Below, piece after piece: positions 727 to 25,431 of a stretch of DNA of 64,000 bases. The notes under the pieces were generated by a model. That model saw only the letters and a list, made by a program, of their open reading frames with translations. It ran no database searches and had not been told where the DNA came from. The stretch's first letter is position 1. Each line of letters begins with the position of its first letter. A program made the translations under genes and the position numbers. This stretch comes from Candidatus Woesearchaeota archaeon (GTDB taxonomy: Archaea; Nanobdellota; Nanobdellia; SCGC-AAA011-G17; GW2011-AR20): the NCBI GenBank assembly GCA_018303025.1, contig JAGVYZ010000014.1:21145-85144 (forward strand). The letters run 5' to 3'.

Positions 727-2025
727 ATGAAAAAAATTTATGTTGGAATGAGTGCGGATTTGATTCATCCAGGGCATTTGAATATTATTAATGTTGCAAA
801 AAGTCTTGGAGAAGTAACTGTTGGGTTATTGACTGATAGGGCAATAGCAAGCTACAAAAGACTTCCTTTTTTATCTTATGAGCAAAGAAAAATCATTGTT
901 GAAAACCTAAAAGGGGTTGATAATGTTATTGCACAAGAAACATTAGATTATGTTCCTAATTTAAAAAAATTAAAACCAGATTATGTTGTTCATGGAGATG
1001 ATTGGAAAACAGGTGTACAAAAAGAAGTCAGGCAAAGAGTAATTGATGCTTTAAATGAGTGGGGTGGCAAATTAATTGAACCAGAATATACTCCTGGAAT
1101 ATCTTCTACACAATTAAATCAAGGATTAAAAGAAATTGGTACAACTCCTGAAATTAGAATGAAGAGATTAAGGAGATTGCTTGAAGCAAAAGATATTGTG
1201 AGAATAATGGAAGCTCATAGTGGTTTGACAGGATTAATTGTTGAACATACTAAAGTAAAACAAGAAGGCAAAAATAAAGAATTTGATGGAATCTGGATAA
1301 GCAGTTTAACTGATTCAACTGTAAAAGGAAAGCCTGATATTGAATTCGTTGATTTGACTTCAAGATTGAATACAATACACCAAATATTAGAAGTAACAAC
1401 AAAACCATTAATTGTTGATGGAGATACAGGAGGTATTGTAGAACATTTTCCTTATATTGTTAAAACATTAGAAAGATTAGGGGTATCGGCTATAATAATT
1501 GAAGATAAGATTGGATTGAAAAAAAATTCATTATTTGGAACAGATGTAGAGCAAAATCAAGATTCAATTGAAAATTTCTGCAAAAAAATTTCTGCTGGAA
1601 AGAAAAGTCAGGTTACAAATGATTTTATGATTATTGCGAGAATTGAAAGCTTAATTTTAGGAAAAGGCATGGAAGATGCAATTAATAGAGCTAAAGAATA
1701 CATAAAAGCAGGAGCAGATGCTATTATGATTCATAGCAAAGAAAAAGAACCTGATGAAATATTAGAATTCTGCAAGAGATATAAAACATTTGAACAAAAA
1801 GTTCCTTTAGTTGCTGTTCCAACAACTTACCATAAAATTACTGAAAAAGAATTAAGCGATAATGGGGTAAATATTGTTATTTATGCTAATCATTTATTGA
1901 GAAGTGCATATCCTGCAATGGTTAAAACAGCTGAATCTATATTATTAAATGAAAGAGCTACTGAAAGTGAAGAGTATTGCATGCCTATAAAAGATATTTT
2001 AAATTTAATTCCAGGAGGAAACTAA
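727..2025 (+). CDS. pepM: Bifunctional cytidylyltransferase / phosphoenolpyruvate phosphomutase (Fom1-like CyTase-PepM fusion)
   Basis: The N-terminal ~130 aa carry the nucleotidyltransferase HxGH motif ([10 protein letters not shown]) typical of the glycerol-3-phosphate / phosphocholine cytidylyltransferase fold. The C-terminal domain carries the PEP mutase signature [13 protein letters not shown] plus the DGDTGG and RIESL motifs of the ICL/PEPM superfamily. Confidence 0.85.
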
Positions 2026-3150
2026 ATGTTAAGTTGCCTGGATTTTTATAATGAACTTACTCATAGGGGGATTAATTTTTTTGCAGGAGTGCCTGATTCA
2101 TTATTAAAAGATTTTTGTGCTTATATTACGGATAATGTTGATTCTAAAAATAACATTATTACTGCTAATGAAGGTGGGGCAATATCTTTATCATCTGGAT
2201 ATCATTTGGCAACTGGAAAAATACCCTTAGTATATATGCAAAATTCAGGACAAGGAAATGCCGTAAATCCTTTAACATCACTAGCAGACCCTGAAGTTTA
2301 TAAAATTCCTATGATTTTGCTTATAGGATGGAGGGGAGAGCCAGGAGTACATGATGAACCTCAACATGTTAAGCAGGGAAAAATAACATTAGATTTACTA
2401 GTTACATTAGGAATTCCTTACAGTATTTTACCACAAAGTTTAGAAGAAGCTAAAGTTTGTCTTAATGAAATGTTTGCTTCTTTAAAAGAAAAAGGTTTAC
2501 CTTATGCTCTAGTTGTAAGAAAGGATACTTTTGAACATTATGAACTAAAAAATAAATTAATAACAAACTATGAACTAGGAAGAGAAGATGCTTTAGATTT
2601 AGTTTTAAGTGAATTAAATGAGAATGATATAATTGTATCAACAACAGGCATGCTTTCAAGAGAACTTTTTGAATATAGAGAAAAAAGAAAAGAAGGACAT
2701 GAACAAGATTTCTTAACAGTTGGTTCAATGGGGCATGCATCACAAATTGCATTAGGAATTGCATTGCAAAAACCTGAAAGACAGGTATATTGTTTTGATG
2801 GTGATGGTGCTTTGATAATGCATATGGGCGCTTTAGCTATAACTGGTTCACAACAGGTTCCTAACTTCAGGCATGTTGTTTTCAATAATGGTAGTCATGA
2901 TTCTGTTGGAGGACAACCCACTGTTGGATTTAATATTGATATTACTTCAATAGCTAAATCATGTGGTTATAAAATTGCAATTAAAGCTGAGAATTCTGAA
3001 GAGTTAGAAAGAGGTTTGAGATTTTTAAGAGAAAATGAAGGACCTTCTTTATTGGAAATAAGAGTAAATAAAGGAGCAAGAAAAGATTTGGGAAGACCGA
3101 GTACAACACCTTTACAAAATAAAGAAGCATTTATGAAACACCTAAGATGA
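2026..3150 (+). CDS. ppd: Phosphonopyruvate decarboxylase (TPP-dependent), Fom2/Ppd-like
   Basis: Starts immediately after the pepM stop. At 374 aa it matches Ppd length. Has a thiamine-diphosphate binding motif (GDGALIMHMGALAI...NNGSHDS). Ppd is the obligate partner of PepM. Confidence 0.8.
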   Translation: MLSCLDFYNELTHRGINFFAGVPDSLLKDFCAYITDNVDSKNNIITANEGGAISLSSGYHLATGKIPLVYMQNSGQGNAVNPLTSLADPEVYKIPMILLIGWRGEPGVHDEPQHVKQGKITLDLLVTLGIPYSILPQSLEEAKVCLNEMFASLKEKGLPYALVVRKDTFEHYELKNKLITNYELGREDALDLVLSELNENDIIVSTTGMLSRELFEYREKRKEGHEQDFLTVGSMGHASQIALGIALQKPERQVYCFDGDGALIMHMGALAITGSQQVPNFRHVVFNNGSHDSVGGQPTVGFNIDITSIAKSCGYKIAIKAENSEELERGLRFLRENEGPSLLEIRVNKGARKDLGRPSTTPLQNKEAFMKHLR

Positions 3151-4271
3151 ACCAGGAAGAACATATTGGCAAAGGAAGTTTAAAAAAATTGCCTGAAATC
3201 ATAAAAAGATTTGGTTCGAAAAAAATATTTCTTGTTACTGGGAAAAAATCTTTTGAATCTTTAAATGGTAAAGAAATTATAGATAGTTTGAAAGAAAATT
3301 ATGAAATTACTCATTTTAATGATTTTTCAGTAAATCCTAATATTTATGATGTAAAGAAAGGTATTGAAGTTTTAAAAGAAAATAAATGTGATTTGGTTGT
3401 TGCAATAGGCGGAGGAAGTGTCATTGATATGGCTAAATCAATAAATATACTTGCTAATCAGGATGATGAAATAGAGAAGTATATAACTGATGAAAAAGAA
3501 ATAACAAAAAAAGGAAACAATTTAATTGCAATACCCACTACTTCTGGTTCTGGAAGTGAAGCAACTCATTTTGCTGTGATTTACATTGATAAAAAAAAGT
3601 TTTCTTTGAGCCATGAATTTATATTACCTATCTGTTCAATTGTAGATTCTGAATTAACAAAAAATCTGCCTAAAGAAATAGCTGCTTCATCTGGAATGGA
3701 TGCACTATGTCAATCTATTGAATCTTATTGGGCTGTTAATTCAAGCGATATTTCAAAAGAATATGCCAGAGATGCAATAAAATTAATTATTGAAAATCTG
3801 GAAAATTATGTTAATGAAAATAATGAAGAAAATCGAGAAATAATGGCAAAAGCTAGTCATCTTGCTGGAAAAGCAATTAATATTTCAAAAACAACTGCTG
3901 CGCATGCAATTTCTTATGGCTTTACTTCTTATTTAGGAATTCAACATGGTCATGCTGTTAGTTTAACATTGCCTTATTTTATAAAATTTAATAATGAAAT
4001 TAGTGAAGAGAGTAATAATGACAAAAGAGGAGTAGAATATGTAAAAAATACAATGAAAGAACTCTTTGATTTATTAAGCGTTAAAACATCAATGGAAGCA
4101 CAAAAGAAGATTATTAATTTAATGCAAAGAATAGGGCTTAAAACTGAATTAAGCGAATCTGCTGATAAAATAAACCTGATTTTAAATTCTGTTAGTTTAG
4201 AAAGACTTGAGAATAATCCCAGAAAAGTGAAAAGGGAAGATTTAATGGAGATATTAAAAAATATTCTCTAA
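3147..4271 (+). CDS. Iron-containing (group III) alcohol dehydrogenase; phosphonoacetaldehyde reductase-like (FomC/PhpC-like, makes 2-hydroxyethylphosphonate)
   Basis: ATGA overlap with the ppd stop indicates translational coupling. Has the Fe-ADH motif GGGSVIDMAKS and conserved His residues (HGHAVS). The position after pepM-ppd mirrors fom1-fom2-fomC. Confidence 0.7.
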   Translation: MNQEEHIGKGSLKKLPEIIKRFGSKKIFLVTGKKSFESLNGKEIIDSLKENYEITHFNDFSVNPNIYDVKKGIEVLKENKCDLVVAIGGGSVIDMAKSINILANQDDEIEKYITDEKEITKKGNNLIAIPTTSGSGSEATHFAVIYIDKKKFSLSHEFILPICSIVDSELTKNLPKEIAASSGMDALCQSIESYWAVNSSDISKEYARDAIKLIIENLENYVNENNEENREIMAKASHLAGKAINISKTTAAHAISYGFTSYLGIQHGHAVSLTLPYFIKFNNEISEESNNDKRGVEYVKNTMKELFDLLSVKTSMEAQKKIINLMQRIGLKTELSESADKINLILNSVSLERLENNPRKVKREDLMEILKNIL

Positions 4272-6831: not shown

Positions 6832-8412
6832 ATGCAAAAAAGAGAAAATAACAATTATGATGGGAAAATTGTACTTGTTTATATTCATGATACTGACTCA
6901 TACAAAGCTTTGCCTGTAGGATTACAATATCTTGGTTCGCATGTAAAAAGAGAAGGTTATGAAGTTAAAATATTAAATCTTTATTTGGACAAAGTTATAG
7001 ATAATTTACCTGAAAATTATAAAGAACTTTTAAAAAAAGAATGTGAGAATTCTATTATCTTAGGAATCTCTGCTATGACTAACCAGGCTTATAGAGGATT
7101 ACAAATTTCAGAATTTGTAAAAAAAATATATCCTAAAATTTGTGTGGTCTGGGGTGGAATTCATGGAACTCTTTTTCCAGAAGATACTTGTGAAAATCCA
7201 AATATTGATTTCATTGTTATGGGAGAAGGAGAAATTACATTTAGCGAGCTTTTGAATAATCTTGGAAAATCAAAAAATTATTCAAAAATTGATGGACTAG
7301 CCTATAAATCTGGAAAAAAAGTATATGTAACTAAGAAAAGAGCATTAATTGATATGTCTAAAATGGCTATTCCTGACTGGGATATTGTTGACGAGTTTGT
7401 AAAAGAAAATATTTATCAATATTTCTGGGGGGACAATTTAAAGTTTACAGAAGTGCATACTGGGAGGGGATGCCCCCACAGATGTAACTTTTGCATTGAT
7501 TCTATTCTTTATGGAAAAACATGGAGACCAAGAAAAGTAGACAGTATTTTAGATGAAATAGAGATGCTGATAAAAAGATATAATATAGACCTGATTGAAT
7601 TAAGAGATGAAAATTTCTTTGTTGATTTAAAAAGAGTAGAAGAGTTTTGCGATAAAAAAATTAAGAGGGGGATAAACATAAAATGGGGAGCTTCAATAAG
7701 GGCTGATTATTTTGAAAGAATAGATGATAATTTTATGAAAAAATTGAAAGACAGTAATTGCTATAGATTTTGGTTTGGGGCTGAATCAGGAAGCCAGAGA
7801 ATTTTAGATTTAATAAAAAAAGATGTTAAACTCTCTAGTTTGTATAAATCAGCACATATGAGCAAAAAATATGGAATAATGCCATTATATTCTTTTATGA
7901 TAGGACAGCCGGGAGAGACAAAAGAAGAGATGAAACAAACAGTTGTTTTAATTAAAAACCTAATAAACATAAACAAAAGAACTGGAATTTTAGGACCTCA
8001 AATATTAAGGCCATATCCTGGATGTGAAATGTTTGATATGTGCGTTAAAGAAGGTTTTGAATCACCTAAGAAGCTTGAAGAGTGGAGAGATTTGGATAGA
8101 ATTTCATTATATTATTTAAGCACTGATTCTTTACCTTGGATAAAAGACAAAGAATTTGTAGAAGTTGTTGCTTATTATACCCCAAAAGCATTTAACATGA
8201 GCTATTTAGTGGGAATAAACTTTTTTTGGAAATTGCTTTTTGGATTAAGGTCTAAATTGTTTCAATTTGGATTATTTGCTTTTATGGGAACTAGTGAAAA
8301 AAGCTTAATGAGAATATTATTAAAGGAATATTTGAAGATAATAGACCAATCAAGTGATATTGGAAAAGGCTTTGTAAAAAGATTTACAAAGATTTTGAAA
8401 TATAGTGCTTAA
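6832..8412 (+). CDS. Cobalamin-binding (class B) radical SAM enzyme, probable methyltransferase; candidate Fom3-like
   Basis: An N-terminal B12-binding-like domain followed by CxxxCxxC (GRGCPHRCNFCID). At 526 aa it is close to Fom3 in length. Confidence 0.8.
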   Translation: MQKRENNNYDGKIVLVYIHDTDSYKALPVGLQYLGSHVKREGYEVKILNLYLDKVIDNLPENYKELLKKECENSIILGISAMTNQAYRGLQISEFVKKIYPKICVVWGGIHGTLFPEDTCENPNIDFIVMGEGEITFSELLNNLGKSKNYSKIDGLAYKSGKKVYVTKKRALIDMSKMAIPDWDIVDEFVKENIYQYFWGDNLKFTEVHTGRGCPHRCNFCIDSILYGKTWRPRKVDSILDEIEMLIKRYNIDLIELRDENFFVDLKRVEEFCDKKIKRGINIKWGASIRADYFERIDDNFMKKLKDSNCYRFWFGAESGSQRILDLIKKDVKLSSLYKSAHMSKKYGIMPLYSFMIGQPGETKEEMKQTVVLIKNLININKRTGILGPQILRPYPGCEMFDMCVKEGFESPKKLEEWRDLDRISLYYLSTDSLPWIKDKEFVEVVAYYTPKAFNMSYLVGINFFWKLLFGLRSKLFQFGLFAFMGTSEKSLMRILLKEYLKIIDQSSDIGKGFVKRFTKILKYSA

Positions 8413-14170: not shown

Positions 14171-14200
14171 AATAGCATTAATTTCAAAACAGTTTTAACC

Positions 14201-14938: not shown

Positions 14939-14941
14939 GAT

Positions 14942-15916: not shown

Positions 15917-16016
15917 TTGAATAAAAAGTTGAATAATTTTATAAAACTATTCAATTTTTGCTTATTTTAATTTACAAAAACATTTTTTAAAATTTATTCT
16001 TTTATTTTGCCAGTTA

Positions 16017-18513: not shown

Positions 18514-18514
18514 T

Positions 18515-19237
18515 TTACATAAACAAAACTCTTACTCTTAATCCAATTGTTTTAAAAAAATATTCAATAATTGTTTTTAACAAAATAAATCTTTTTTTCC
18601 TTTTTTGAAATATTTTACGAAAGAATTTTACTGGAATCTCCTTCATTTTTAATCCTTCTTTATTAGCTAAGACCAAAAGTTCAGTGTCCCAAAACCAATG
18701 ATGGTCATTTATTTTATCTAAAATAGGAAGAATTTTGGTTTTATTGAAAAATTTGCAGTTGGAAAGAACATCTGAAACATGCAGATTAAACAGGATTTTA
18801 ATAAAATACCTGTAAGAAATACTCAAAAAATAATTAATGTAATACCTGAAGTCTAAGTCATATTTTGAGGTTGTTCTTGATGCATTTACGATATCATATC
18901 CCTTGTTTATTTCTTCTATTAGTATTAATATTTGATAAAAAGGAATCTGCAAATCAGGGTCAATAAATCCAACAATACAGGCTTTTGCTTTTTTTATTCC
19001 ATTAGATAATGCCTTTCCTCTTCCTAATCTTTTATCAGAATGCAGATGGATTACATTTTCATATTTCTTTGATAACTTATCTGCTATCTTATCTGTACCA
19101 TCTGTGCTTCCATCTTCTGAAATAATTATTTCGTACTTGTAATTTGTTTTATTCATTACTAACTGTATTTGATGTATACCTCCTTCTAATAAATCTGATT
19201 TATTCATGCAGGGAAGAATAATGCTAACATCCATCAT
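18515..19237 (-). CDS. GT2 polyprenyl-phosphate sugar synthase (paralog of 14201..14938)
   Basis: Shares IISEDGSTDGTDKIADKLSKKY.NVIHLHSDKRLGRGK with the 14201 gene, including an identical 44-nt nucleotide core. Confidence 0.7.
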   Translation of the reverse strand: MMDVSIILPCMNKSDLLEGGIHQIQLVMNKTNYKYEIIISEDGSTDGTDKIADKLSKKYENVIHLHSDKRLGRGKALSNGIKKAKACIVGFIDPDLQIPFYQILILIEEINKGYDIVNASRTTSKYDLDFRYYINYFLSISYRYFIKILFNLHVSDVLSNCKFFNKTKILPILDKINDHHWFWDTELLVLANKEGLKMKEIPVKFFRKIFQKRKKRFILLKTIIEYFFKTIGLRVRVLFM

Positions 19238-19983
19238 CCTGATTTATATACCTCTTTTGCCATTCTAAGTGTTTCTGGTGTGCCAATATCAAACCAGATT
19301 CCATGAAAAATGAAACCCTTAACATTTACTTTTTTTTGTTTTAACAGCCATTCAATTAAATAACCGGGTCTGTCTGGATTATTGCCTTTTTCAACATAAT
19401 CTTTTATTAGATTCAAATGTTCTTTAGGAAATAAATAAAGTCCTGTTGATGCTAATGTTGTTTCTGGTTCCTTTGGTTTTTCTGTAAATTTTATAAGATT
19501 GTTATTCTTGTCTAAAGTTAATATACCAAAATTCTTTGCAAGATTTTTATTATTGAGATTAATAACACCTATTTGTATTGCTCTTTCATTTTCCAAGGTA
19601 TTAACATAATTTAACAAACTAAATTCAAAAATATTATCGCCCAATATTAAAAATAAATCATCTTTTATTTCTTTTAGTTTTATTGCATTGTATATTGCAC
19701 CGATACTTCCTAGTTTTTGCTTTTCATTTGAACTTTGTTCTATAATTAAAGTTACTTTTTTATGATAAAATGTCTCTATTTCTTTCAACCATTTTTCAAA
19801 ATGAGTTTTAAATTTAGAATTCGTTGCAACATAGATTTCATCAATGTCTTCTATATTTGAAATTCTGTCCAGAATATGGCCTAATATTGGTTTTCCGCCT
19901 ACTTTTAACAATGGCTTTGGAAAATTCTTTGTTATTGGCCACAATCTTGTTGCAAATCCTCCTGCTAAAATAAGTGCTTTCAT
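19234..19983 (-). CDS. Sugar-1-phosphate nucleotidyltransferase
   Basis: N-terminal MKALILAGGFATRLWPITKNFPKPLL nucleotidyltransferase G-loop. Overlaps 18515..19237 by 4 nt. Confidence 0.75.
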   Translation of the reverse strand: MKALILAGGFATRLWPITKNFPKPLLKVGGKPILGHILDRISNIEDIDEIYVATNSKFKTHFEKWLKEIETFYHKKVTLIIEQSSNEKQKLGSIGAIYNAIKLKEIKDDLFLILGDNIFEFSLLNYVNTLENERAIQIGVINLNNKNLAKNFGILTLDKNNNLIKFTEKPKEPETTLASTGLYLFPKEHLNLIKDYVEKGNNPDRPGYLIEWLLKQKKVNVKGFIFHGIWFDIGTPETLRMAKEVYKSG

Positions 19984-20035
19984 AATTAAAAAGCCAAATA
20001 AAAATCTATATAAAGATTGTTAATTTTCTAAAATT

Positions 20036-21199
20036 ATGGAAAAACTAGCTATAGATGGTGGAGAGCCTATAATTAAACAAAAAATTCCAATGGTTGTACC
20101 TTATTTTGATGAAAAAGAAATAGATTCTGTCGTTGAAACTATAAAGTCTACATGGATTTCTTCTAATGGCAAGAAAGGAAAAGAGCTTGAAGAAAAAATG
20201 TGTAAATATTTAGGAGTAAACCATACTATTTTAGTAAATAACTGCACATCTGCATTACATTTAGCTTTAATGATTTTGGGAATAAAATCAGGAAATGTTT
20301 TAGTACCTGATTACACATTTACCTCTACCGGGCTTGCACCAATACTAGTTAATGCTTCTCCTAAATTAGTTGATGTAGAGTATGACACTGCAAACATTGA
20401 AGTAAATCAAATTGAAAGAAGCATTGATTCTAATACTAAATGCATAATACCTGTGCATTATGCCGGACATCCATGCGAAATGGACTCTATAAACAGAATA
20501 GCTAATGAAAATGAAATTTTTGTTGTAGAAGATGCTGCTCAGGCATTAGGCTCTGAGTATAAAGGAAGGAAAGCTGGAACATTGTCCGATATTGGTTGTT
20601 TTAGTTTTCATGCTGTCAAAAATATAACTTGCGGAGAAGGCGGGGCTATTGTTACAAATGATGACAAATTAGCTGAAAAAGCTGTTATCATGCGAGACAA
20701 AGGAACAAACAAGGCTGCTTTTAATATACATCAGAACACTGGATTTTATGATTATGTTTCAGAAGGGCACAATTTCATGCTATCTGAAATTTTAGCTGCT
20801 GTTGCTTTAGAGCAATTTAAGAAAATAGACAAGATTACTGAATTGAGAAGAAAAAATGCAGATTATATGGTGAAAGAGTTAAAGAAATTAAATAATCCAA
20901 AGATAATATTGCCTACTGTAAAAAATTATGCAAATACAAACTGGCATTTGTTTCCAATAAAGTTCAAAGGAGATGTTAATTGGTTCAGCAAAGCAATGAA
21001 TGCAGAAGGAATAACTGCAAATATACATTATGTTCCATTGCATTTGACTACACTGTATAAAAAATATGGCTACAAGGAAGGGGATTTTCCAAATGCAGAA
21101 AGAGTTTTTAACAGCATGGTCAGACTGCCAATGCATCCTGGATTAACAAAAGAAGACATGGATAATATTGTGAAAGCAGTAGAGAAAGTGGCAAGATGA
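20036..21199 (+). CDS. DegT/DnrJ/EryC1-family PLP-dependent nucleotide-sugar aminotransferase
   Basis: Has the active-site block FSFHAVKNITCGEGGAI with the Schiff-base lysine retained. This argues for a transaminase and against an E1-type 3-dehydrase. Confidence 0.8.
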   Translation: MEKLAIDGGEPIIKQKIPMVVPYFDEKEIDSVVETIKSTWISSNGKKGKELEEKMCKYLGVNHTILVNNCTSALHLALMILGIKSGNVLVPDYTFTSTGLAPILVNASPKLVDVEYDTANIEVNQIERSIDSNTKCIIPVHYAGHPCEMDSINRIANENEIFVVEDAAQALGSEYKGRKAGTLSDIGCFSFHAVKNITCGEGGAIVTNDDKLAEKAVIMRDKGTNKAAFNIHQNTGFYDYVSEGHNFMLSEILAAVALEQFKKIDKITELRRKNADYMVKELKKLNNPKIILPTVKNYANTNWHLFPIKFKGDVNWFSKAMNAEGITANIHYVPLHLTTLYKKYGYKEGDFPNAERVFNSMVRLPMHPGLTKEDMDNIVKAVEKVAR

Positions 21200-22059
21200 A
21201 AGGAACAATAGGGGGGAAAGTCCAGAAATTTTACAATGAAACTCCTTTTCCAGATTATGAACTTGAAAGATTTGAAAATAAAGAACAATTGAGAATTTTA
21301 GCTTATCCTTTTGCAGAAACATTAGATAGAAGTATTCCTAAAGATGCAAGTATTATAGATGTTGGAACAGGAACAGGGCAGTTATCTGCTTTTTTATCTT
21401 TAAAGAGAAAAAATGTATGGGGTATAGACTTTTCAGATAGTTCATTAAAAAAAGCTAATGCATTAAAAGAAAAATTAAAACTAGATACATTAACATTAAA
21501 GAAAGTTAATATTCTTAATGATAATGAAATTGAAAAATTACCCAAGTTTGACTATGTCTTATGTATGGGAGTTTTGCATCATACTGGAAATCCAAAGAAA
21601 GCTTTTAGGAATATATTAAAATTATTGAAACCTAATGGAAAAATAGCAATTGGATTATACAATAAGTATGGAAGAATACCATTAAAAATAAGAATTTTTT
21701 TAGCTAAAACTATTTTTAGAAATAACCAAAAAGTAAAAGATTATTTCATTAGGTTACAGATTGGAGAAATTAAAGACAAAGAAAGAGCAAGAGGATGGTG
21801 GAATGACCAATATGAACATCCTCATGAAAGCACTCATACTATTGGAGAAGTTCTTGATTGGTTTAAGAAATATAATGTTAAATACTTGCAAACAGTCCCT
21901 AATACTAAATTCTCCAATGGTACTGATTTAGAGTGTTATGGGCTGTTTAATAAAGAGAGAAAACCAACTATAGTTCATAGAGCTTATAATCAATTAAAGT
22001 GGATTTATACTACCCATAAAGAAGGTGGATATTGGATAACTATGGGTGAGAGAAAATGA
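21196..22059 (+). CDS. Class I SAM-dependent methyltransferase
   Basis: Motif I IIDVGTGTGQL. ATGA overlap with the upstream gene. Confidence 0.65.
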   Translation: MKGTIGGKVQKFYNETPFPDYELERFENKEQLRILAYPFAETLDRSIPKDASIIDVGTGTGQLSAFLSLKRKNVWGIDFSDSSLKKANALKEKLKLDTLTLKKVNILNDNEIEKLPKFDYVLCMGVLHHTGNPKKAFRNILKLLKPNGKIAIGLYNKYGRIPLKIRIFLAKTIFRNNQKVKDYFIRLQIGEIKDKERARGWWNDQYEHPHESTHTIGEVLDWFKKYNVKYLQTVPNTKFSNGTDLECYGLFNKERKPTIVHRAYNQLKWIYTTHKEGGYWITMGERK

Positions 22060-22640
22060 AAGGAATACCTTACCTTCACCCTTTTTTATATAAACTAACT
22101 ATGAAAATTCTTAATTTGGGGCATTATAAAAAAAAATATAATTTTTTGAAAAAAGAAATAGGAGACTTAACTGTTTTAGATGTTGGTTGTGGTGATTGCG
22201 AACTTGCTAATTATATTAAGAAAGAAAATTATAGTGGATGGGATACTAATGAAATATTTGTAAAAAAGGCTATTAAAAAAGGATTAAAGGTTGAGAATAA
22301 AGATGTTAGAAATTCTAATTTTCCAAAAGTAGACTGCATTGTATTTTCAGAAGTTTTGCATCATCTTCAACCAGATTATAAAAAGATAATAAAAAAAGCT
22401 ATTGATAATTCAAAAAAAGTTATTATTATTGAACCAGTAAGTCATGTAGCATCTTCTAAAAATATAATACTTTCTTTTATGGGAAAAGCATTTAATTATA
22501 ATGGACAAAAAGATTCAGTAGTTATACCTATAGAAAAAGAAGAGCTTATTAAACTTGGGAAAGAATTTAATAGTAAGATTATAAAAACAGAGGGAAGATT
22601 ATTATTAATGGTTTTTGAAAATGGAAGAAAAAGAATTTAA
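22056..22640 (+). CDS. Small class I SAM-dependent methyltransferase
   Basis: Motif I VLDVGCGDCELA. 4-nt overlap with the upstream gene. Confidence 0.5.
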   Translation: MKGIPYLHPFLYKLTMKILNLGHYKKKYNFLKKEIGDLTVLDVGCGDCELANYIKKENYSGWDTNEIFVKKAIKKGLKVENKDVRNSNFPKVDCIVFSEVLHHLQPDYKKIIKKAIDNSKKVIIIEPVSHVASSKNIILSFMGKAFNYNGQKDSVVIPIEKEELIKLGKEFNSKIIKTEGRLLLMVFENGRKRI

Positions 22641-23292
22641 AATATATGGGCAGGAAAAAGAAGTACAGTATCTTTCACAGATTTACAGAAATATGGGAAT
22701 ATTTTTAGCTGAAAGACTTGTAAAGACTGAAATAACACCTAATTTTATTACATTTCTTGCAATATTTTTTGGTTTTGTTTCTATAGGAACATTATTATTT
22801 TTTAAAAATAATTTAGGAATAATTATTGGGGTTGCTATTTTCCAGCTGTCTTTGATTTTAGATGTTACTGATGGTTCTTTAGCAAGAAGGAAAAATATAA
22901 TTAATAAGTTTATAACATGGATGGATTATAATGCTGATGTTTTTTTAGACACTTGTGTTCTTTTTGCAGTAACTTTATCTCTTTATTTACAAACAAAAGA
23001 ACCATTAATCTTAATTTTTGGATTTTCAACAATAATTATGAAAGATTTAATTTATAATATTAGCATAGCTTTGGCAGCTACTGTAAAAGAACCTTCAAAA
23101 ATATTAGAAAAAGGACAAAAGAACTTTTTATCAAATTTTATTCCTACCAGACCTTTTATTTTTTTATCTTTGATGATATTTGCTATTTTTAATAAAGTTT
23201 ATCTTTATTTTGTCTTAATGACAATTTATCAAGTCTTTTTTTACTTTGGAACATTAGCTTACTTAAGCATAAAATTGAAGAAAAATGAATGA
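22615..23292 (+). CDS. CDP-alcohol phosphotransferase family membrane protein
   Basis: Has DVTDGSLARR...(multi-TM) consistent with the D-G-x2-A-R...D-x3-D signature. About 6 TM helices. Confidence 0.65.
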   Translation: MKMEEKEFKIYGQEKEVQYLSQIYRNMGIFLAERLVKTEITPNFITFLAIFFGFVSIGTLLFFKNNLGIIIGVAIFQLSLILDVTDGSLARRKNIINKFITWMDYNADVFLDTCVLFAVTLSLYLQTKEPLILIFGFSTIIMKDLIYNISIALAATVKEPSKILEKGQKNFLSNFIPTRPFIFLSLMIFAIFNKVYLYFVLMTIYQVFFYFGTLAYLSIKLKKNE

Positions 23293-23950
23293 AATAAGCA
23301 AAGTAGATTATTATGGAAAAAGGGAAGTTGTAGAAAATTATTTTGAAAGAAGATATGGCAATAATAGCGGGAAGCTTATCAATAAAAGAGAATTATATGC
23401 TGTTAAATCTTTACTTCCGGGAAAAGGAAAAATTTTGGATGTTGCCTGCGGAACAGGCAGATTGGGCATGATTCTAAATAGAAATTTTGAAGTTACTGGT
23501 GTAGACACTTCAAAAGAGATGCTAAAAATATGCCCTTATAAAAATAAAATAATTGGAAGCGCTGAAAAATTACCTGTAAAAGATAAATATGATATTGTTG
23601 TTGCCTTAAGGTTCTTTTTTCATTATGAAGATATTGAACCTTTTTTAAAAGAATTCAAGAGGGTTTCTAAAAAGAATGGGTTTATCATCTTTGAAACATA
23701 TTCCTGGAGTCCAAGAAGCATAATTAATATAAAAAGCCTCGGAGGAAAAATATATTCTCATAACCATAAGAAAATTTTAGAAATATTAAACAAACTTGAT
23801 TTAAAACTTATTGAGAAAAGAAGAATATTCCTTTTTTCACCTTTTGTGCAAAAAAAACTGCCATTTTTTATTCTTAAATTTATTACTAAAATAGAAGAAA
23901 AACTTCCTGATAAATTTAAAATGGACTGCTATTGGAAAGTTCAAGTTTGA
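23285..23950 (+). CDS. Class I SAM-dependent methyltransferase
   Basis: Motif I ILDVACGTGRLG. Overlaps the upstream gene. Confidence 0.65.
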   Translation: MNEISKVDYYGKREVVENYFERRYGNNSGKLINKRELYAVKSLLPGKGKILDVACGTGRLGMILNRNFEVTGVDTSKEMLKICPYKNKIIGSAEKLPVKDKYDIVVALRFFFHYEDIEPFLKEFKRVSKKNGFIIFETYSWSPRSIINIKSLGGKIYSHNHKKILEILNKLDLKLIEKRRIFLFSPFVQKKLPFFILKFITKIEEKLPDKFKMDCYWKVQV

Positions 23951-25431
23951 AACAAGCAAACATCATTTATTTGTTTTAGTTTCTTTAAATTGCAAAATTC
24001 TAATGTATTGCAATTGTCATTTTGAGTAATAATATGTGTTGTATTAACATAATTAAGATTTTCAGTTATTGCCTCACAATTTTTTTCATTTAATAACTGA
24101 TTTATTGCTTTAAATTTTTTAACATACTCTGCATCTTTTTCAGAATAAGACCAGCCACCAGAAGTTGAAAGATTTAAAAAAATTGGGGCATAAGAATAAT
24201 AAGCATTTGAATAAGAAGTTGTGCTGTTAATTCCAAAAATAACAAACTTGCTGTCTTTTGGAAGCTCTTCTAGTAAACTTAAAATATTATTTTCTAAAGG
24301 CGTATGGTCTACAAAATAAGGTGTATGAACTGCATTTGCTATGATGCTTAAGACAGCAAAGAAGATTATACCTAAAATAATTATTTTTTTAATCCAAGAT
24401 TTATACAAATTAAAATCTATTTTTAACAAATAGTAAACTATAAAGAAAATAAGCAGGGTTATAACTGAATCAGGATAAACTTTATCTAAGATAGGCAAGA
24501 AGGCAGTTATTCTGAATAAAAATAAAATAGTTAAAATTAATATTGGTAAAAAAAAGATGAATTCTTTCTTAATTCTATTTTTATAAAAATACAGGAAAGA
24601 AATGACTAGTAAGACAATAGGTATAATAATTCCTACAATGTTCGTTAAGAGCCATTGACCAGAAAATTCTAATGATCTTGTTCCCATTGAATAGTTTAAT
24701 ATTGAATTATTTTTTAATTGAAGTAAATAATTAAACCACCAGAATGAAGACAATATTAAGCCGAGAATCATTAAAAAAATCATTTTTATCTTATCTGCTT
24801 TGTTAATGACTAGAAATAATCCAAAAAGCATGATATGCGCCAGGATTATTGTCACTGGATGTGAAATCATTAAAATAGTGTAAAAAATTATAAAGATTAT
24901 ATAAAAAAACTTGTCTAGTTTTTTGTTTACATATTCTATGCTTAAGAAAAATAAGGGGATAAAGATTACCCAGCTAAACAGTTCTGACATTCTTCCAAGC
25001 CTTATGAAATCACCTATTGACATGGGGTTTGCGAAAACAAACAGGAAAAAGACAACAGAATAAAGAAAAGAAAATCCCTGCATTTTTCCAAATTTGTAAA
25101 TCATGTAAAAACCAATCACTAAAAGAATGATAAGAGAAAGATATGTTGCTAAAAGAATATTGTTTAGTAATAAATAAATTGGATATGTGAAAAAAGCCCA
25201 GCCAGGCGTATAAGAACTAAAAGTAGTATAGCCATGATACCAATAAGGGCAGATTTGATGAAAACCACAGTCTTTTAAGAAAAATAGCATAGCCATATGT
25301 CCACTATAATCATTGACTGTATCTAATGGAAAAACGGTTATTAATTTTGATTGATTAATTAACCGAAATAAAAGATTAATGAATAGAATTAAAGCTGACA
25401 ACCACAAATACTTTTTAGGAATAGTCTTCAT
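23941..25431 (-). CDS. Polytopic membrane protein, possibly a GT-C-like or glycan polymerase/ligase-like enzyme
   Basis: 496 aa with more than 10 TM helices plus a C-terminal extracytoplasmic domain. No confident family. Confidence 0.45.
   Translation of the reverse strand: MKTIPKKYLWLSALILFINLLFRLINQSKLITVFPLDTVNDYSGHMAMLFFLKDCGFHQICPYWYHGYTTFSSYTPGWAFFTYPIYLLLNNILLATYLSLIILLVIGFYMIYKFGKMQGFSFLYSVVFFLFVFANPMSIGDFIRLGRMSELFSWVIFIPLFFLSIEYVNKKLDKFFYIIFIIFYTILMISHPVTIILAHIMLFGLFLVINKADKIKMIFLMILGLILSSFWWFNYLLQLKNNSILNYSMGTRSLEFSGQWLLTNIVGIIIPIVLLVISFLYFYKNRIKKEFIFFLPILILTILFLFRITAFLPILDKVYPDSVITLLIFFIVYYLLKIDFNLYKSWIKKIIILGIIFFAVLSIIANAVHTPYFVDHTPLENNILSLLEELPKDSKFVIFGINSTTSYSNAYYSYAPIFLNLSTSGGWSYSEKDAEYVKKFKAINQLLNEKNCEAITENLNYVNTTHIITQNDNCNTLEFCNLKKLKQINDVCLFQT

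What the first reader, a model, noticed from the sequence alone, without database searches (positions are those of the whole stretch)
21196..23950. Overlapping operon of three SAM methyltransferases around a CDP-alcohol phosphotransferase: candidate transferase for the CMP-activated phosphonate head group
Four genes overlap start-to-stop (21196/21199, 22056/22059, 22615/22640, 23285/23292). The third is a membrane CDP-alcohol phosphotransferase family protein (DVTDGSLARR...). Enzymes of this family transfer phospho-X from CDP-X to an acceptor alcohol. The same family uses CMP-aminoethylphosphonate to make phosphonolipids in eukaryotes. In an island that appears to make CMP-HEP, this is the most plausible enzyme to move the phosphonate onto a polyprenol-linked glycan or a lipid. 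The flanking methyltransferases could O- or N-methylate the head group or the sugars.
Basis: inference. Interest (0 to 1): 0.7.

Follow-up and report, generated by a model that had tools for sequence, protein, structure and literature searches.

The report
Archaeal candidate phosphonate transferase operon
A small membrane enzyme of the CDP-alcohol phosphotransferase family, sitting between methyltransferase genes in the surface-sugar island of a Woesearchaeote, is probably the enzyme that attaches a carbon-phosphorus (phosphonate) group to a membrane-anchored sugar or lipid; this is a step nobody has characterised in prokaryotes, though the gene association was already predicted in bacteria.

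Summary
Overlapping + strand genes encode SAM methyltransferase (MT), MT, CDP-alcohol phosphotransferase (CDPOH, PF01066) and MT. The operon really starts one gene earlier, with a DegT aminotransferase.

CDPOH has a confident six-helix CDP-AP fold, closest to AF2299. All four motif aspartates are present.

The island encodes a Fom1-like cytidylyltransferase-PEP mutase, phosphonopyruvate decarboxylase, an Fe-ADH and a B12 radical-SAM enzyme. That makes CMP-hydroxyethylphosphonate a credible donor.

The new evidence is comparative. Relatives of this CDPOH clade lie 63 bp to 3.4 kb from PepM cassettes. One lies beside a phosphonate ABC importer plus a stand-alone Fom1-like cytidylyltransferase. 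Sixteen loci of the ~300-aa clade and seven of the AIPS-like clade show none of these. No other phosphotransferase type was found among the island's ORFs of 120 aa or more.

MT adjacency is conserved (9 of 14 close loci). Flanking genes (NDP-sugar synthesis, a small GT2, a GT-C fold protein) suggest a lipid-linked sugar acceptor, but a phosphonolipid is not excluded.

CDP-OH genes next to Ppm are already known in Burkholderia, Nostoc and Borgs. I rate this a new archaeal variant. Function is inferred, not shown.

The parts
20036..21199 (+). DegT/WecE-type PLP aminotransferase. It is the true first gene of the operon, and its stop overlaps the MT1 start (ATGA).
   Evidence: PF01041, E=2.5e-109. 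NCBIfam dTDP-4-amino-4,6-dideoxygalactose transaminase, 331 bits against a cut-off of 375. Junction read. A DegT gene is also directly upstream of the CDPOH relative in L069 and close to it in L009, L013 and L096.
21196..22059 (+). MT1, a class I SAM-dependent methyltransferase (287 aa). Substrate unknown.
   Evidence: Methyltransf_31/12/23/11/25, E=4e-21 to 1e-14. Only generic PDB and NCBIfam matches: UbiG, lysine MTs, phosphoethanolamine MTs. Absent from the closest syntenic lineage L013/L096.
22056..22640 (+). MT2, a small MetW-like class I SAM methyltransferase (194 aa). It overlaps both neighbours and is the most tightly coupled partner of CDPOH.
   Evidence: Methyltransf_23, E=4e-8; MetW, E=3e-6. 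No PDB sequence match. An overlapping MT2-CDPOH pair is conserved in L013/L096 (58-62% identity) and L009 (30-32%).
22621..23292 (+). CDPOH, a stand-alone six-helix CDP-alcohol phosphotransferase. The ORF opens at TTG 22615; public calls use ATG 22621 (223 aa). Proposed CMP-phosphonate:acceptor phosphonotransferase.
   Evidence: PF01066, E=8.6e-12. Motif D83xxD86GxxA90R91x8(I100)xxxD104xxxD108. AF2 pLDDT 91; best fold match AF2299 (4o6m), TM 0.73. Below the AIPS, PIPS and DIPPS cut-offs. Clade-specific linkage to PepM or PhnD.
23285..23950 (+). MT3, a class I SAM methyltransferase (221 aa), overlapping the CDPOH stop by 8 nt.
   Evidence: Methyltransf_11, E=2.6e-17. MT3-like genes lie next to CDPOH relatives in L013/L096 (61% identity), L011 and L022 (27-30%), and L015 (35%).
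19984..20035 (.). 52-bp A+T-rich divergent intergenic region between NTP_b and DegT, with TATATAAA about 25 nt upstream of the DegT start. Likely an archaeal promoter region (inference).
   Evidence: Sequence read. No archaeal promoter tool was available.
19234..19983 (-). NTP_b, a sugar-1-phosphate nucleotidylyltransferase, divergently transcribed from the operon.
   Evidence: PF00483, E=2e-41. Best NCBIfam matches rmlA_long at 110 bits and Arch_glmU at 101 bits. 66% identical and syntenic in L013. No specific similarity to the NTP domains fused to CDPOH relatives.
18515..19237 (-). GT2_b, a small (240 aa) family-2 glycosyltransferase of the polyprenyl-phosphate sugar synthase type (DPM1/ArnC-like, by inference).
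   Evidence: PF00535, E=2e-26. Weak ArnC and PgfS NCBIfam matches. A homologue lies next to CDPOH in L009 (40-42% identity) and is syntenic in L013/L096.
23941..25431 (-). GT-C fold membrane glycosyltransferase (496 aa), convergent with MT3 and overlapping it by 10 nt.
   Evidence: No Pfam hit. Homologues are widespread in DPANN, and some hit PF10131. AF2 pLDDT 92.9. Foldseek best matches STT3/AglB, AftD, AftA, PglB and ArnT, E=5e-6 to 6e-3. 55% identical and syntenic in L013/L096.
727..2025 (+). Fom1-like bifunctional cytidylyltransferase-PEP mutase. Proposed source of the C-P bond and of the CMP-activated donor.
   Evidence: PF01467 + PF13714. TIGR02320 PEP_mutase, 416 bits against a cut-off of 320. 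Residues 4-137 match the Fom1 CyTase domain (PDB 5x3d) at E=2.8e-59. 72% identical homologue 3.4 kb from the CDPOH relative in L015.
2026..3150 (+). Phosphonopyruvate decarboxylase.
   Evidence: TIGR03297, 503 bits against a cut-off of 312.5.
3147..4271 (+). Group III Fe-alcohol dehydrogenase. By context it is a phosphonoacetaldehyde reductase making 2-hydroxyethylphosphonate.
   Evidence: PF00465/PF25137. Phn_Fe-ADH TIGR03405, 198 bits, below its cut-off of 424. The PepM-Ppd-FeADH order is conserved in L015 and L069. No AEP transaminase was found in the window.
6832..8412 (+). Class B (B12-binding) radical-SAM enzyme. By context it is an analogue of Fom3, which C-methylates CMP-HEP.
   Evidence: PF02310 + PF04055. 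NCBIfam matches are only sub-threshold: BchE, BzaD, and the PhpK and Sden_1168 P-methyltransferases. Its closest homologues lie immediately beside CDPOH relatives in L011, L015/L017 and L019. Direct similarity to Fom3 was not tested.

Best explanation
The operon DegT-MT1-MT2-CDPOH-MT3 is part of a surface-decoration pathway of a Woesearchaeote (DPANN archaeon).

**Proposed mechanism**
1. The island's Fom1-like cytidylyltransferase-PepM fusion, phosphonopyruvate decarboxylase and Fe-ADH convert PEP to 2-hydroxyethylphosphonate and activate it as CMP-HEP.
2. A B12 radical-SAM enzyme may C-methylate CMP-HEP, as Fom3 does.
3. CDPOH, a small six-helix membrane CDP-alcohol phosphotransferase, binds this CMP-phosphonate in place of a CDP-alcohol. 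It lets an acceptor hydroxyl attack the phosphonate phosphorus and releases CMP. In effect it does productively what FomD does hydrolytically in fosfomycin biosynthesis.
4. I favour, roughly 60:40 over a core diether lipid, a polyprenyl-phosphate-linked (amino)sugar or glycan as acceptor. That sugar would be made by the adjacent NTP transferase, DegT and small GT2. The modified sugar would then be used outside the cell by the adjacent GT-C enzymes.
5. The SAM methyltransferases methylate either the amino sugar or the transferred head group (its hydroxyl or the remaining P-OH).

**Shown versus inferred**
- Shown: gene content, family and fold membership, an intact catalytic motif, and clade-specific genomic linkage to phosphonate synthesis or import genes.
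- Inferred: donor identity, acceptor identity and every catalytic step.
For: 1. CDP-AP membership and an intact active site: PF01066; all four motif Asp present; model pLDDT 91; AF2299 TM 0.73.
2. The donor is plausible. The Fom1 CyTase homologue matches at E=2.8e-59. PepM and Ppd are above equivalog cut-offs. Fom1 makes CMP-HEP and Fom3 methylates CMP-HEP (PMC6697681, PMC8158854).
3. Linkage in the close clade:
   - L015/L017: MT and B12-rSAM, then CDPOH, then MT, NTP_transf_3, rSAM-SPASM, CyTase-PepM (72% identity), Ppd and FeADH, all within 7 kb.
   - L026: CDPOH 63 bp upstream of a PepM-NTP fusion.
   - L014: CDPOH, NTP_transf_3, PhnE/PhnC/PhnD importer and a stand-alone Fom1-like CyTase.
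   - L069, a more distant relative (outside the close clade): DegT-CDPOH-MT-PepM/NTP-Ppd-FeADH as one gene string.
4. Specificity. In the close clade, 3 of 14 loci over 115 kb (plus the window) carry PepM or PhnD, and 9 of 14 have an adjacent MT. The counts are 0 of 16 loci over 112 kb in the ~300-aa clade and 0 of 7 over 94 kb in the AIPS-like clade. Ppm occurs in only about 5% of bacterial genomes (PMC8942020).
5. By elimination: Pfam scans of ORFs of 120 aa or more across the island found no LicD, TagF, Stealth or sulfatase-type transferase.
6. Family precedent: EPT1 uses CMP-AEP + DAG (KEGG pathway as cited in PMC9765203). CDP-OH genes are core to 318 Ppm neighbourhoods in Burkholderiales (PMC8942020).
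7. Acceptor hint: the flanking NTP transferase, DegT, small GT2 and GT-C fold protein are syntenic in L013/L096.
Against: - PepM lies about 20 kb from CDPOH in the window, with many glycan genes between them.
- The closest lineage (L096/L013) and loci L009 and L016 show no PepM or PhnD in the 5-10 kb visible. Linkage is therefore frequent but not universal.
- The motif Gly is Ile in the window protein and Met in L013/P0005. The effect is unknown.
- No CDP-AP enzyme is known to transfer onto a glycan or a polyprenyl-linked sugar.
- LPG_synthase_TM (HpnL-like) genes lie beside several relatives (L011, L016, L022, L033), as in the predicted bacterial phosphonolipid clusters. That fits a lipid product at least as well.
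- The island also encodes a CDP-glucose-type pathway and other nucleotidyltransferases that could supply a non-phosphonate donor.
- The neighbour-joining tree is rough, with no support values.
- MT substrates cannot be read from sequence.
Confidence: 0.55

Rival explanations
1. Same donor chemistry, different acceptor. CDPOH is a phosphonolipid synthase that transfers HEP (or a derivative) from CMP-HEP onto a core lipid alcohol (archaeol or diacylglycerol, possibly scavenged from a host). This gives a phosphono-analogue of a phospholipid. That lipid either stays in the membrane or serves as head-group donor for an extracytoplasmic transferase. This rival is nested within the donor claim of the best explanation.
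For: - All characterised CDP-APs with soluble donors and membrane acceptors use diradylglycerol-type lipids; EPT1 with CMP-AEP is the example cited in PMC9765203.
- Bacterial Ppm-linked CDP-OH genes are predicted phosphonolipid synthases (PMC8942020, PMC5987646).
- LPG_synthase_TM/HpnL-like flippase-type genes lie beside CDPOH relatives in L011, L016, L022 and L033, the same pairing as in the Nostoc and Burkholderia clusters.
Against: - No LPG_synthase_TM gene was found in the window.
- The immediate conserved neighbours are sugar-activating and sugar-modifying genes, a small GT2 and GT-C enzymes.
- The whole 50-kb island up to AglB is glycan-related.
- DPANN archaea generally lack lipid synthesis (own knowledge), though that does not exclude head-group exchange.
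Confidence: 0.2
2. CDPOH uses an ordinary CDP-alcohol that is not a phosphonate. Candidates are CDP-glycerol, CDP-inositol, CDP-ethanolamine, or a CDP-linked (amino, methylated) 6-deoxyhexose made by the island's glucose-1-phosphate cytidylyltransferase-like, CDP-glucose 4,6-dehydratase-like and DegT enzymes. It would install a phosphodiester-linked substituent on a glycan or lipid, and the PepM cassette would be served by another, unrecognised transferase.
For: - NTP_a scores 238 bits on the glucose-1-P cytidylyltransferase model (cut-off 300). The next gene scores 226 on CDP-glucose 4,6-dehydratase (cut-off 278).
- DegT and 4,6-dehydratase-type genes recur near CDPOH relatives (L009, L016, L069, L096).
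- The nearest solved relatives (AF2299, DIPPS, PIPS) work with CDP-inositol, CDP-DAG or inositol phosphate.
- L009, L016 and L096 show no phosphonate genes in the DNA available.
Against: - It does not explain why PepM cassettes, PntC-type NTP transferases, or a phosphonate importer plus Fom1-like CyTase sit next to relatives in at least nine independent loci and never in the control clades.
- No glucose-1-P cytidylyltransferase is consistently linked to the clade.
- NTP_b has no specific similarity to the NTP domains fused to CDPOH relatives.
- No CDP-AP is known to use a CDP-sugar.
- No alternative phosphonate transferase was found in the island.
Confidence: 0.2
3. CDPOH is a housekeeping archaeal phospholipid head-group synthase (archaetidylinositol-phosphate, archaetidylserine or archaetidylglycerol-phosphate synthase using CDP-archaeol) that merely happens to lie in a glycan island.
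For: The best NCBIfam match is archaetidylinositol phosphate synthase (E=2.3e-13). The fold is shared with PIPS.
Against: - The score is 50.5 bits against a cut-off of 180; L014 and L015 relatives score 55-62.
- AIPS-like DPANN proteins (P0165 Diapherotrites, P0166, L001 Micrarchaeota) form a separate branch without MT, B12-rSAM or PepM neighbours.
- The gene is translationally coupled to methyltransferases and a sugar aminotransferase.
- Synteny with glycan genes is conserved.
Confidence: 0.05

Closest known systems
AF2299 of Archaeoglobus fulgidus (PDB 4o6m/4o6n/4q7c), with the related IPCT-DIPPS (4mnd) and PIP synthases (6h53, 5d92)
   Same: Closest solved relative by sequence (E=8e-11) and by fold (TM 0.73). 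It shares the six-helix membrane core, the D-x2-DG-x2-AR...D-x3-D metal and nucleotide site at the cytoplasmic ends of TM2-TM3, and the juxtamembrane N-terminal helix.
   Different: The window protein has no N-terminal cytosolic domain, which AF2299 and DIPPS carry. Identity is 22-23%. It scores far below the AIPS, PIPS and DIPPS family cut-offs. The motif Gly is replaced by Ile. The gene context (MTs, DegT, B12-rSAM, PepM) differs.
Ppm-linked CDP-OH_P_transf genes of bacteria ('Burkholderiales CDP-OH family' of 318 neighbourhoods, PMC8942020; Nostoc lichen cyanobionts, PMC5987646) and of Borg elements (Cobalt 308/319/320, bioRxiv 10.1101/2024.11.05.622173)
   Same: A CDP-alcohol phosphotransferase is encoded with PepM, Ppd and phosphonate cytidylyltransferases, and is predicted to move a CMP-activated phosphonate onto a membrane acceptor. 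None has been characterised biochemically. Metagenomic relatives of this type were recovered here (L005, L039, L045, L063).
   Different: - Those clusters make AEP or hydroxy-AEP (AEPT, 2OG oxygenase). They use PntC (PF12804) cytidylyltransferases and carry an HpnL-like gene.
- The window uses the HEP branch (Fe-ADH, Fom1-type PF01467 CyTase) and has B12 radical-SAM and SAM methyltransferase partners.
- It lies in an archaeal N-glycosylation island and belongs to a separate short (220-250 aa) clade.
- PepM is 20 kb away rather than adjacent.
Eukaryotic ethanolamine/choline phosphotransferases (EPT1, CEPT1, CPT1), which use CMP-2-aminoethylphosphonate
   Same: Same Pfam superfamily and the same chemistry: an alcohol attacks the beta-phosphorus of a cytidine-linked donor. 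CMP-AEP + DAG gives DAG-AEP (pathway as cited in PMC9765203).
   Different: Only distant structural similarity (8ero, 8gyw, 9uet: Foldseek E 0.16-2.5, TM 0.41-0.49). The eukaryotic enzymes have ten helices. This is an analogy, not membership.
Early fosfomycin pathway of Streptomyces (Fom1, Fom2, FomC, Fom3, FomD)
   Same: CyTase-PepM fusion (5x3d match E=2.8e-59), Ppd, Fe-ADH and a class B radical-SAM enzyme in one cassette. CMP-HEP is the central intermediate (PMC6697681, PMC8158854).
   Different: No Fom4 epoxidase or FomD hydrolase was recognised in the window. The cassette is embedded in glycan genes. The cytidylyl group is proposed to be used for transfer rather than removed. Similarity of the radical-SAM enzyme to Fom3 itself was not tested.
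LicC/LicD and PntC/LicD-type phosphocholine or AEP decoration of bacterial glycans
   Same: The same logic: cytidylyl activation followed by transfer of the P-group to a surface glycan (PMC6697681).
   Different: The transferase family differs: LicD (PF04991) there, CDP-AP here. No LicD homologue was detected in the island.
ArnB/ArnC/ArnT-type lipid-linked amino-sugar decoration (own knowledge)
   Same: The flanking genes have the same parts list: DegT-type aminotransferase, small GT2, and GT-C enzymes.
   Different: The Arn pathway has no CDP-AP or methyltransferases, and no formyltransferase or deformylase is present here. This is a resemblance of context only.

Membership tests
CDP-alcohol phosphotransferase superfamily (Pfam PF01066) | Match to the family HMM above the gathering score | tested here: met
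   46.1 bits against a cut-off of 22, E=8.6e-12, residues 41-203.
CDP-alcohol phosphotransferase superfamily (Pfam PF01066) | Signature D-x2-D-G-x2-A-R-x8-G-x3-D-x3-D | tested here: met
   D83, D86, G87, A90, R91, D104 and D108 are present. The single Gly after x8 is Ile100; it is Gly in 90% or more of 30 relatives and Met in L013/P0005.
CDP-alcohol phosphotransferase superfamily (Pfam PF01066) | Six-transmembrane-helix core fold with an N-terminal interfacial helix | tested here: met
   AF2 model pLDDT 91.1, pTM 0.86. Foldseek against AF2299 gives TM 0.73 and probability 1.00; PIPS and IPCT-DIPPS come next.
CDP-alcohol phosphotransferase superfamily (Pfam PF01066) | Metal-dependent transfer of a substituted phosphate from a cytidine-linked donor with release of CMP | not testable with these tools
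   Needs an enzyme assay.
Archaetidylinositol phosphate synthase (NCBIfam NF040950) | Score at or above the equivalog cut-off | tested here: not met
   50.5 bits against 180. Relatives L015 and L014 score 55.4 and 62.0. The protein falls on a separate branch from AIPS-like proteins in the NJ tree.
IPCT/DIPPS (NF041135) and PIP synthase (NF045883) | Score at or above the cut-off; for IPCT/DIPPS, a fused cytidylyltransferase domain | tested here: not met
   30.4 bits against 580, and 35.0 against 170. The protein is 223-225 aa with no cytosolic domain.
Ppm-associated CDP-OH gene clusters (predicted phosphonolipid or phosphonoglycan type) | CDP-OH gene in the same neighbourhood as PepM, Ppd and a phosphonate cytidylyltransferase | tested here: met
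   In the window all lie in the same glycan island, but 20 kb apart. Clade relatives are directly adjacent to these genes in L015/L017 and L026, and the more distant relative L069 is too. L014 has a PhnCDE importer plus CyTase in place of PepM.
Ppm-associated CDP-OH gene clusters (predicted phosphonolipid or phosphonoglycan type) | Seven-gene Burkholderiales core: AEPT, 2OG/Fe(II) oxygenase, two PntC genes and an HpnL-like membrane protein | tested here: not met
   No Aminotran_5 AEPT, 2OG oxygenase or LPG_synthase_TM was found among the window's ORFs of 120 aa or more. An Fe-ADH and a PF01467 CyTase are present instead.
Eukaryotic EPT/CEPT/CPT subfamily | Close structural or sequence similarity to CPT1/CEPT1 | tested here: not met
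   Foldseek E=0.16-2.5, TM 0.41-0.49. No phmmer hit at E<=1.
Fom1-type bifunctional CyTase-PepM (donor supply, 727-2025) | PF01467 + PF13714 fusion, PepM equivalog score, and close match to the Fom1 CyTase domain | tested here: met
   TIGR02320, 416 bits against 320. 5x3d at E=2.8e-59 over residues 4-137. HEP specificity itself cannot be tested here.
Class I SAM-dependent methyltransferases (MT1, MT2, MT3) | Pfam match above the gathering score, and a glycine-rich SAM-binding motif I | tested here: met
   Motif I is read as DVGTGTG (MT1), DVGCGDC (MT2) and DVACGTG (MT3). Substrate class could not be determined.
GT-C glycosyltransferases (neighbour 23941-25431) | GT-C membrane fold with a conserved acidic residue in the first external loop | tested here: met
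   pLDDT 92.9. Foldseek against STT3/AglB, AftD, AftA, PglB and ArnT, E=5e-6 to 6e-3. D41 is invariant in 28 homologues. No Pfam hit for this protein itself.

The most novel reading that the evidence does not exclude
A previously unrecognised clade of small (220-250 aa) stand-alone CDP-alcohol phosphotransferases, mostly from DPANN-type archaea, are the missing 'phosphonyl transferases' of HEP-type surface phosphonates.

They would take CMP-hydroxyalkylphosphonates that have been tailored while still cytidylylated, by Fom3-like B12 radical-SAM C-methylases and by SAM methyltransferases. They would attach these to polyprenyl-phosphate-linked amino sugars at the inner membrane face. GT-C enzymes would then deliver the sugars to the cell surface.

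Some lineages (L014) would feed the same transferase by importing environmental phosphonate through PhnCDE and cytidylylating it. That would be a salvage-to-surface route with no C-P bond synthesis.
Probability: 0.25. Interest if true: 0.75.

Novelty: new variant of a known kind. Interest (0 to 1): 0.55.

Why it matters
How prokaryotes attach phosphonates to their surfaces after cytidylyl activation is an acknowledged gap: the steps after AEP were described as unknown in PMC6697681. About half of all PepM clusters are thought to make such surface molecules (PMC8942020).

This locus and its relatives name one compact, expressible candidate enzyme for that step in the HEP branch. That branch is also relevant to marine HEP- and methylphosphonate-bearing polysaccharides. 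They also supply a defined donor, CMP-HEP, which can be made with the Fom1 CyTase domain. The question therefore becomes directly testable.

The work also suggests three further points:
- The 'transient' cytidylylation of fosfomycin biosynthesis derives from an activation-for-transfer logic.
- Radical-SAM and SAM methylations may act on the nucleotide-linked phosphonate.
- Some archaea may decorate themselves with imported phosphonate.

The impact is limited because the gene association is already predicted in bacteria, and because nothing here is experimental.

Tried and rejected
- **Word-indexed homologue search with CDPOH alone.** It gave one hit. With a 30-sequence profile it gave only 19. 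The exhaustive HMMER search was needed to see the family: 780 representatives at E<1e-10.
- **The search for related loci.** It failed on the 30- and 8-sequence alignments. The genome-contig scan with a 4-sequence alignment returned only 8 mostly distant loci. Viral contigs returned nothing.
- **Exact look-up of the 225-aa TTG-start protein.** It found nothing because public calls start at ATG 22621. DegT was used instead.
- **NTP_b as the dedicated donor-making partner (as in IPCT-DIPPS).** Rejected. It shares only glycine-loop similarity with the NTP domains fused to CDPOH relatives, and its best family matches are sugar-1-phosphate nucleotidyltransferases.
- **Assigning MT substrates from PDB or NCBIfam.** Only generic class I matches turned up; MT2 had none.
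- **Testing whether the closest lineage (L096) carries PepM.** The contig ends 6.5 kb beyond the operon, so the test is undecided.
- **Looking for another phosphotransferase type** (LicD, TagF, Stealth, sulfatase/EptA) among the island's ORFs, including the two unannotated ORFs at relaxed thresholds. None was found.
- **Fom3 similarity of the B12 radical-SAM enzyme.** This could not be tested. No Fom3 structure or NCBIfam model turned up.
- **Housekeeping lipid synthase reading.** Rejected on the score cut-offs, the tree and the gene context.

Full report
**Observation**

Pfam confirms three class I SAM methyltransferases around a CDP-OH_P_transf protein: PF01066, 46 bits against a gathering score of 22. 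The junctions are ATGA overlaps at 21196 and 22056, a 20-26 nt overlap at 22615/22621-22640, and ATGAATGA at 23285.

The first of these overlaps is with the upstream DegT-family aminotransferase (20036-21199). The unit is therefore a five-gene operon, DegT-MT1-MT2-CDPOH-MT3. It lies behind a 52-bp divergent intergenic region that carries a TATA-like TATATAAA.

Public gene calls start CDPOH at ATG 22621, giving 223 aa. NCBI names it 'CDP-alcohol phosphatidyltransferase family protein [Candidatus Woesearchaeota archaeon]' (MBS3140764.1). PepM is MBS3140744.1, twenty accession numbers lower. The contig recurs in about 45 data blocks.

**Setting**

The window is archaeal and has about 28% G+C. From 727 to about 51.9 kb it is one long glycan island. 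It holds GT1, GT2 and GT4 enzymes, three PMT_2-type GT-C enzymes, two Wzx-like flippases, four nucleotidyltransferases, a GHMP kinase, epimerases and dehydratases, a carbamoyltransferase, five radical-SAM enzymes (three of them B12-binding) and AglB/STT3.

At its left end sit four relevant genes:
- A cytidylyltransferase-PEP mutase fusion: PEP_mutase equivalog, 416 bits against a cut-off of 320. Its N-terminal 134 residues match the Fom1 HEP cytidylyltransferase domain, PDB 5x3d, at E=2.8e-59.
- A phosphonopyruvate decarboxylase: 503 bits against 312.5.
- An Fe-alcohol dehydrogenase.
- After a flippase gene and a GDSL hydrolase gene, a class B radical-SAM enzyme.

This is the gene set that makes CMP-HEP in Streptomyces and C-methylates it: Fom1, Fom2, FomC and Fom3 (PMC6697681, PMC8158854). 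The Fe-ADH is below the cut-off of the phosphonate-specific model (198 against 424 bits).

**The protein**

CDPOH has all four aspartates and the DG..AR of the CDP-AP signature. The only deviation is Ile100 where 90% or more of relatives have Gly.

An AlphaFold model built on 30 relatives is confident: pLDDT 91, pTM 0.86. It superposes best on AF2299 (TM 0.73), then on mycobacterial PIP synthases and IPCT-DIPPS. Eukaryotic CPT1 and CEPT1 are only remotely similar (sequence level).

It is not a core-lipid head-group synthase by the available tests. It scores 50.5 bits against 180 for archaetidylinositol-phosphate synthase, 35 against 170 for PIP synthase and 30 against 580 for IPCT/DIPPS. Whether the genome has another CDP-AP could not be checked.

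**The family**

An exhaustive HMMER search found 780 cluster representatives at E<1e-10. Most are stand-alone proteins of 215-250 aa, and a few are fused to NTP-transferase domains.

A metagenome scan with the pattern LDx[VTA]DGSLAR returned 80 loci. Eight more came from genomes and several from exact look-ups.

In a rough neighbour-joining tree the window protein groups with L013/P0005, P0006-7 and P0001-3. Beside them are two groups containing L009, L020, L026 and L033, and L011, L014, L015/L019, L016, L021 and L022. AIPS-like DPANN sequences (P0165, P0166, L001), IPCT/DIPPS-like sequences and a large clade of about 300 aa all lie elsewhere.

**Comparative evidence for the phosphonate link**

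tblastn and phmmer searches of window proteins against all loci, plus Pfam scans of neighbours, show the following:
- **L015/L017:** MT and B12-rSAM on one side of CDPOH. On the other side are MT, NTP_transf_3 (PntC-like), rSAM-SPASM, CyTase-PepM (72% identical to the window's), Ppd and Fe-ADH.
- **L026:** a TylF-like MT, then CDPOH, then a PepM-NTP fusion 63 bp downstream, then a 2-hydroxyacid dehydrogenase. A second CDPOH copy lies nearby.
- **L069:** DegT-CDPOH-MT-PepM/NTP-Ppd-FeADH as one gene string.
- **L005, L039, L042, L045, L063:** more distant, bacterial-type CDPOH genes 0.7-0.9 kb from PepM-NTP fusions.
- **L014:** an AglB-bearing archaeal locus without PepM in 17 kb. It has three B12-rSAM genes, CDPOH, NTP_transf_3, a PhnE/PhnC/PhnD phosphonate ABC importer (PhnD at E=2e-74) and a stand-alone cytidylyltransferase 35% identical to the window's Fom1-like domain. 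This is an independent route to the same inference: import, cytidylylate, transfer.
- **L034:** a further PhnD lies 3.8 kb from a more distant CDPOH.

Counts by clade:

| Clade | Loci | DNA surveyed | PepM or PhnD | Adjacent MT (≤100 bp) | B12-rSAM within 1.5 kb |
|---|---|---|---|---|---|
| Close clade | 14 | 115 kb | 3 (plus the window) | 9 | 6 |
| ~300-aa clade | 16 | 112 kb | 0 | 0 | 0 |
| AIPS-like clade | 7 | 94 kb | 0 | 0 | 0 |

Among close-clade contexts of 10 kb or more, four of six carry phosphonate genes: the window, L014, L015 and L026 do, and L009 and L016 do not. Ppm occurs in only about 5% of bacterial genomes (PMC8942020), so this is far beyond chance.

Pfam scans of the island's ORFs of 120 aa or more, including the two unannotated ORFs at relaxed thresholds, found no LicD, TagF, Stealth or sulfatase-type transferase. 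CDPOH is therefore the only recognisable candidate.

**What weakens it**

- PepM is 20 kb from CDPOH in the window.
- The closest lineage (L013/L096) keeps GT2, NTP, DegT, MT2, CDPOH, MT3, the GT-C protein and PMT in the same order at 48-66% identity. It shows no PepM in the 10 kb on one side, and the contig ends after 6.5 kb on the other.
- L009 (MT-MT2-CDPOH-GT2, DegT, acetyltransferase, carbamoyltransferase) and L016 also lack visible phosphonate genes.
- The island encodes enzymes like glucose-1-phosphate cytidylyltransferase and CDP-glucose 4,6-dehydratase, so a non-phosphonate CDP donor cannot be excluded.
- The tree has no support values.

**Acceptor and methyltransferases**

The genes conserved around the operon in two Woesearchaeote lineages are a sugar-1-phosphate nucleotidyltransferase, DegT, a small GT2 and a 496-aa membrane protein. 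DegT scores 331 bits on the dTDP-4-amino-4,6-dideoxygalactose transaminase model, just under its cut-off of 375. The membrane protein has no Pfam hit, but its model (pLDDT 93) has a GT-C fold resembling STT3/AglB, AftD, AftA, PglB and ArnT. A PMT_2 enzyme follows in the relatives.

This parts list resembles the lipid-linked amino-sugar decoration systems (own knowledge of ArnB/ArnC/ArnT). It leads me to favour a polyprenyl-phosphate-linked sugar or glycan as acceptor.

Against that, all characterised CDP-APs with membrane acceptors use diradylglycerol lipids. HpnL-like LPG_synthase_TM genes also flank four relatives, as in the predicted bacterial phosphonolipid clusters (PMC5987646). A phosphonolipid therefore remains a serious alternative, possibly as a head-group donor for an external transferase.

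The methyltransferases are generic by sequence. An MT2-like gene overlaps CDPOH in three contexts. MT3-like genes neighbour it in at least four lineages. MT1 is absent from the closest lineage. Methylation is thus a conserved part of the pathway, but the target cannot be decided. Candidates are the amino sugar's nitrogen, the HEP hydroxyl and the residual P-OH. The last would parallel O-methyl phosphoramidate or DhpI-type chemistry (own knowledge).

**Comparison with what is known**

- CDP-OH_P_transf genes form the core of the 318-member 'Burkholderiales CDP-OH' family of Ppm neighbourhoods (PMC8942020).
- They are drawn in the Nostoc phosphonate cluster together with NTP transferase, pepM, ppd, AEPT and hpnL (PMC5987646).
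- A Borg element encodes a PepM-cytidylyltransferase fusion, a PntC-AEPT fusion and an AF2299-like CDP-AP lacking the cytosolic domain in one region. Its authors filed the CDP-AP under phospholipid synthesis (bioRxiv 10.1101/2024.11.05.622173).
- EPT1 with CMP-AEP is the eukaryotic precedent (as cited in PMC9765203).
- None of the prokaryotic enzymes has been characterised. The steps after cytidylylation were explicitly called unknown (PMC6697681).

The present case differs in five ways:
- It is a separate, short clade, seen here mainly in archaeal (AglB-bearing) glycan loci.
- It uses the HEP/Fom1-type branch.
- It has conserved SAM-MT and B12-rSAM partners.
- It is embedded in an N-glycosylation island.
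- It has an import-fed sister locus.

**Verdict**

- I rate it a new variant of a known, predicted kind.
- Confidence that the donor is a CMP-phosphonate is about 0.55.
- Confidence in a lipid-linked sugar acceptor specifically is about 0.3.
- Interest is 0.55.

Noticed in passing
L014 (metagenome contig Ga0180007_10001728), about 15-16990; CDPOH 6252-7001, NTP_transf_3 7805-8497, PhnE 8546-9346, PhnC 9349-10134, PhnD 10149-11063, CyTase 11080-11499: An AglB-bearing archaeal glycan locus combines a CDPOH relative and three B12 radical-SAM genes with a complete PhnCDE phosphonate ABC importer and a stand-alone Fom1-like cytidylyltransferase. It has no PepM in 17 kb. This may be a route that imports environmental phosphonate and uses it for surface decoration rather than catabolism. 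L034 also has a PhnD 3.8 kb from a more distant CDPOH.
   Followed up: partly
window 727-8412: A fosfomycin-like early cassette lies at the edge of a Woesearchaeote glycan island: Fom1-type CyTase-PepM, Ppd, Fe-ADH and a class B radical-SAM enzyme, interrupted by a Wzx-like flippase gene and a GDSL hydrolase gene. No Fom4 or FomD equivalents were recognised.
   Followed up: partly
window 6832-8412, 17218-18513, 38668-40056 (B12-binding radical SAM); 35860-36978, 40878-42215 (other radical SAM): Five radical-SAM genes, three of them B12-binding, sit in one glycan island, which is unusually many. B12-rSAM genes also cluster around CDPOH relatives (L011, L014, L015, L016, L019, L033). This hints at C-methylation, possibly iterative, of a nucleotide-linked or lipid-linked intermediate.
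   Followed up: partly
L093, L094, L095 (strain variants of the window, region equivalent to 17218-25431): In two samples the homologue of the B12 radical-SAM gene 17218-18513 is split into two ORFs. In one variant (L093) the gene downstream of MT3 is a 388-aa LuxE-domain protein instead of the 496-aa GT-C protein. The flanks of the operon therefore vary at population level.
   Followed up: no
window 9666-11350: Adjacent genes score close to the cut-offs for glucose-1-phosphate cytidylyltransferase (238 against 300 bits) and CDP-glucose 4,6-dehydratase (226 against 278). The island therefore probably also makes CDP-linked 6-deoxyhexoses. These are possible substrates for DegT and a conceivable alternative CDP donor.
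   Followed up: partly
proteins P0001-P0003, P0010, P0011 (relatives of CDPOH; alignment A2): A subclade has Gly in place of the fourth (proposed catalytic) Asp of the CDP-AP motif, while the other motif residues are kept. These proteins may be inactive or mechanistically altered. The window protein and its closest relatives instead replace the motif Gly by Ile or Met.
   Followed up: no
window 23941-25431 (- strand): This 496-aa protein has no Pfam hit, yet its model has a confident GT-C fold with an invariant Asp41 and four invariant C-terminal cysteines. The family is widespread in Woesearchaeota and Nanoarchaeota. Some members are annotated '6-pyruvoyl-tetrahydropterin synthase-related' (PF10131), which looks like a misleading name.
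   Followed up: partly
L026 3804-6488: A PepM-NTP transferase fusion is followed by a D-2-hydroxyacid dehydrogenase rather than Ppd, directly downstream of a CDPOH relative. This may be a phosphonolactate-type (VlpB-like) branch feeding the same kind of transferase.
   Followed up: no
window 52900-56808: A ribose-1,5-bisphosphate isomerase-like IF-2B family gene (52900-53775) and a RuBisCO large-subunit gene (55330-56808) lie just outside the glycan island, separated by an ATPase_2/DUF234 gene. The RuBisCO is probably form III. This is the nucleotide-salvage pair typical of DPANN archaea.
   Followed up: no
window 28565-30312, and L043/L058: A GHMP kinase (HddA-like, 231 bits) sits next to an NTP transferase. 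The same pair lies 1-2 kb from a distant CDPOH relative in L043 and L058. Its significance is unknown.
   Followed up: no
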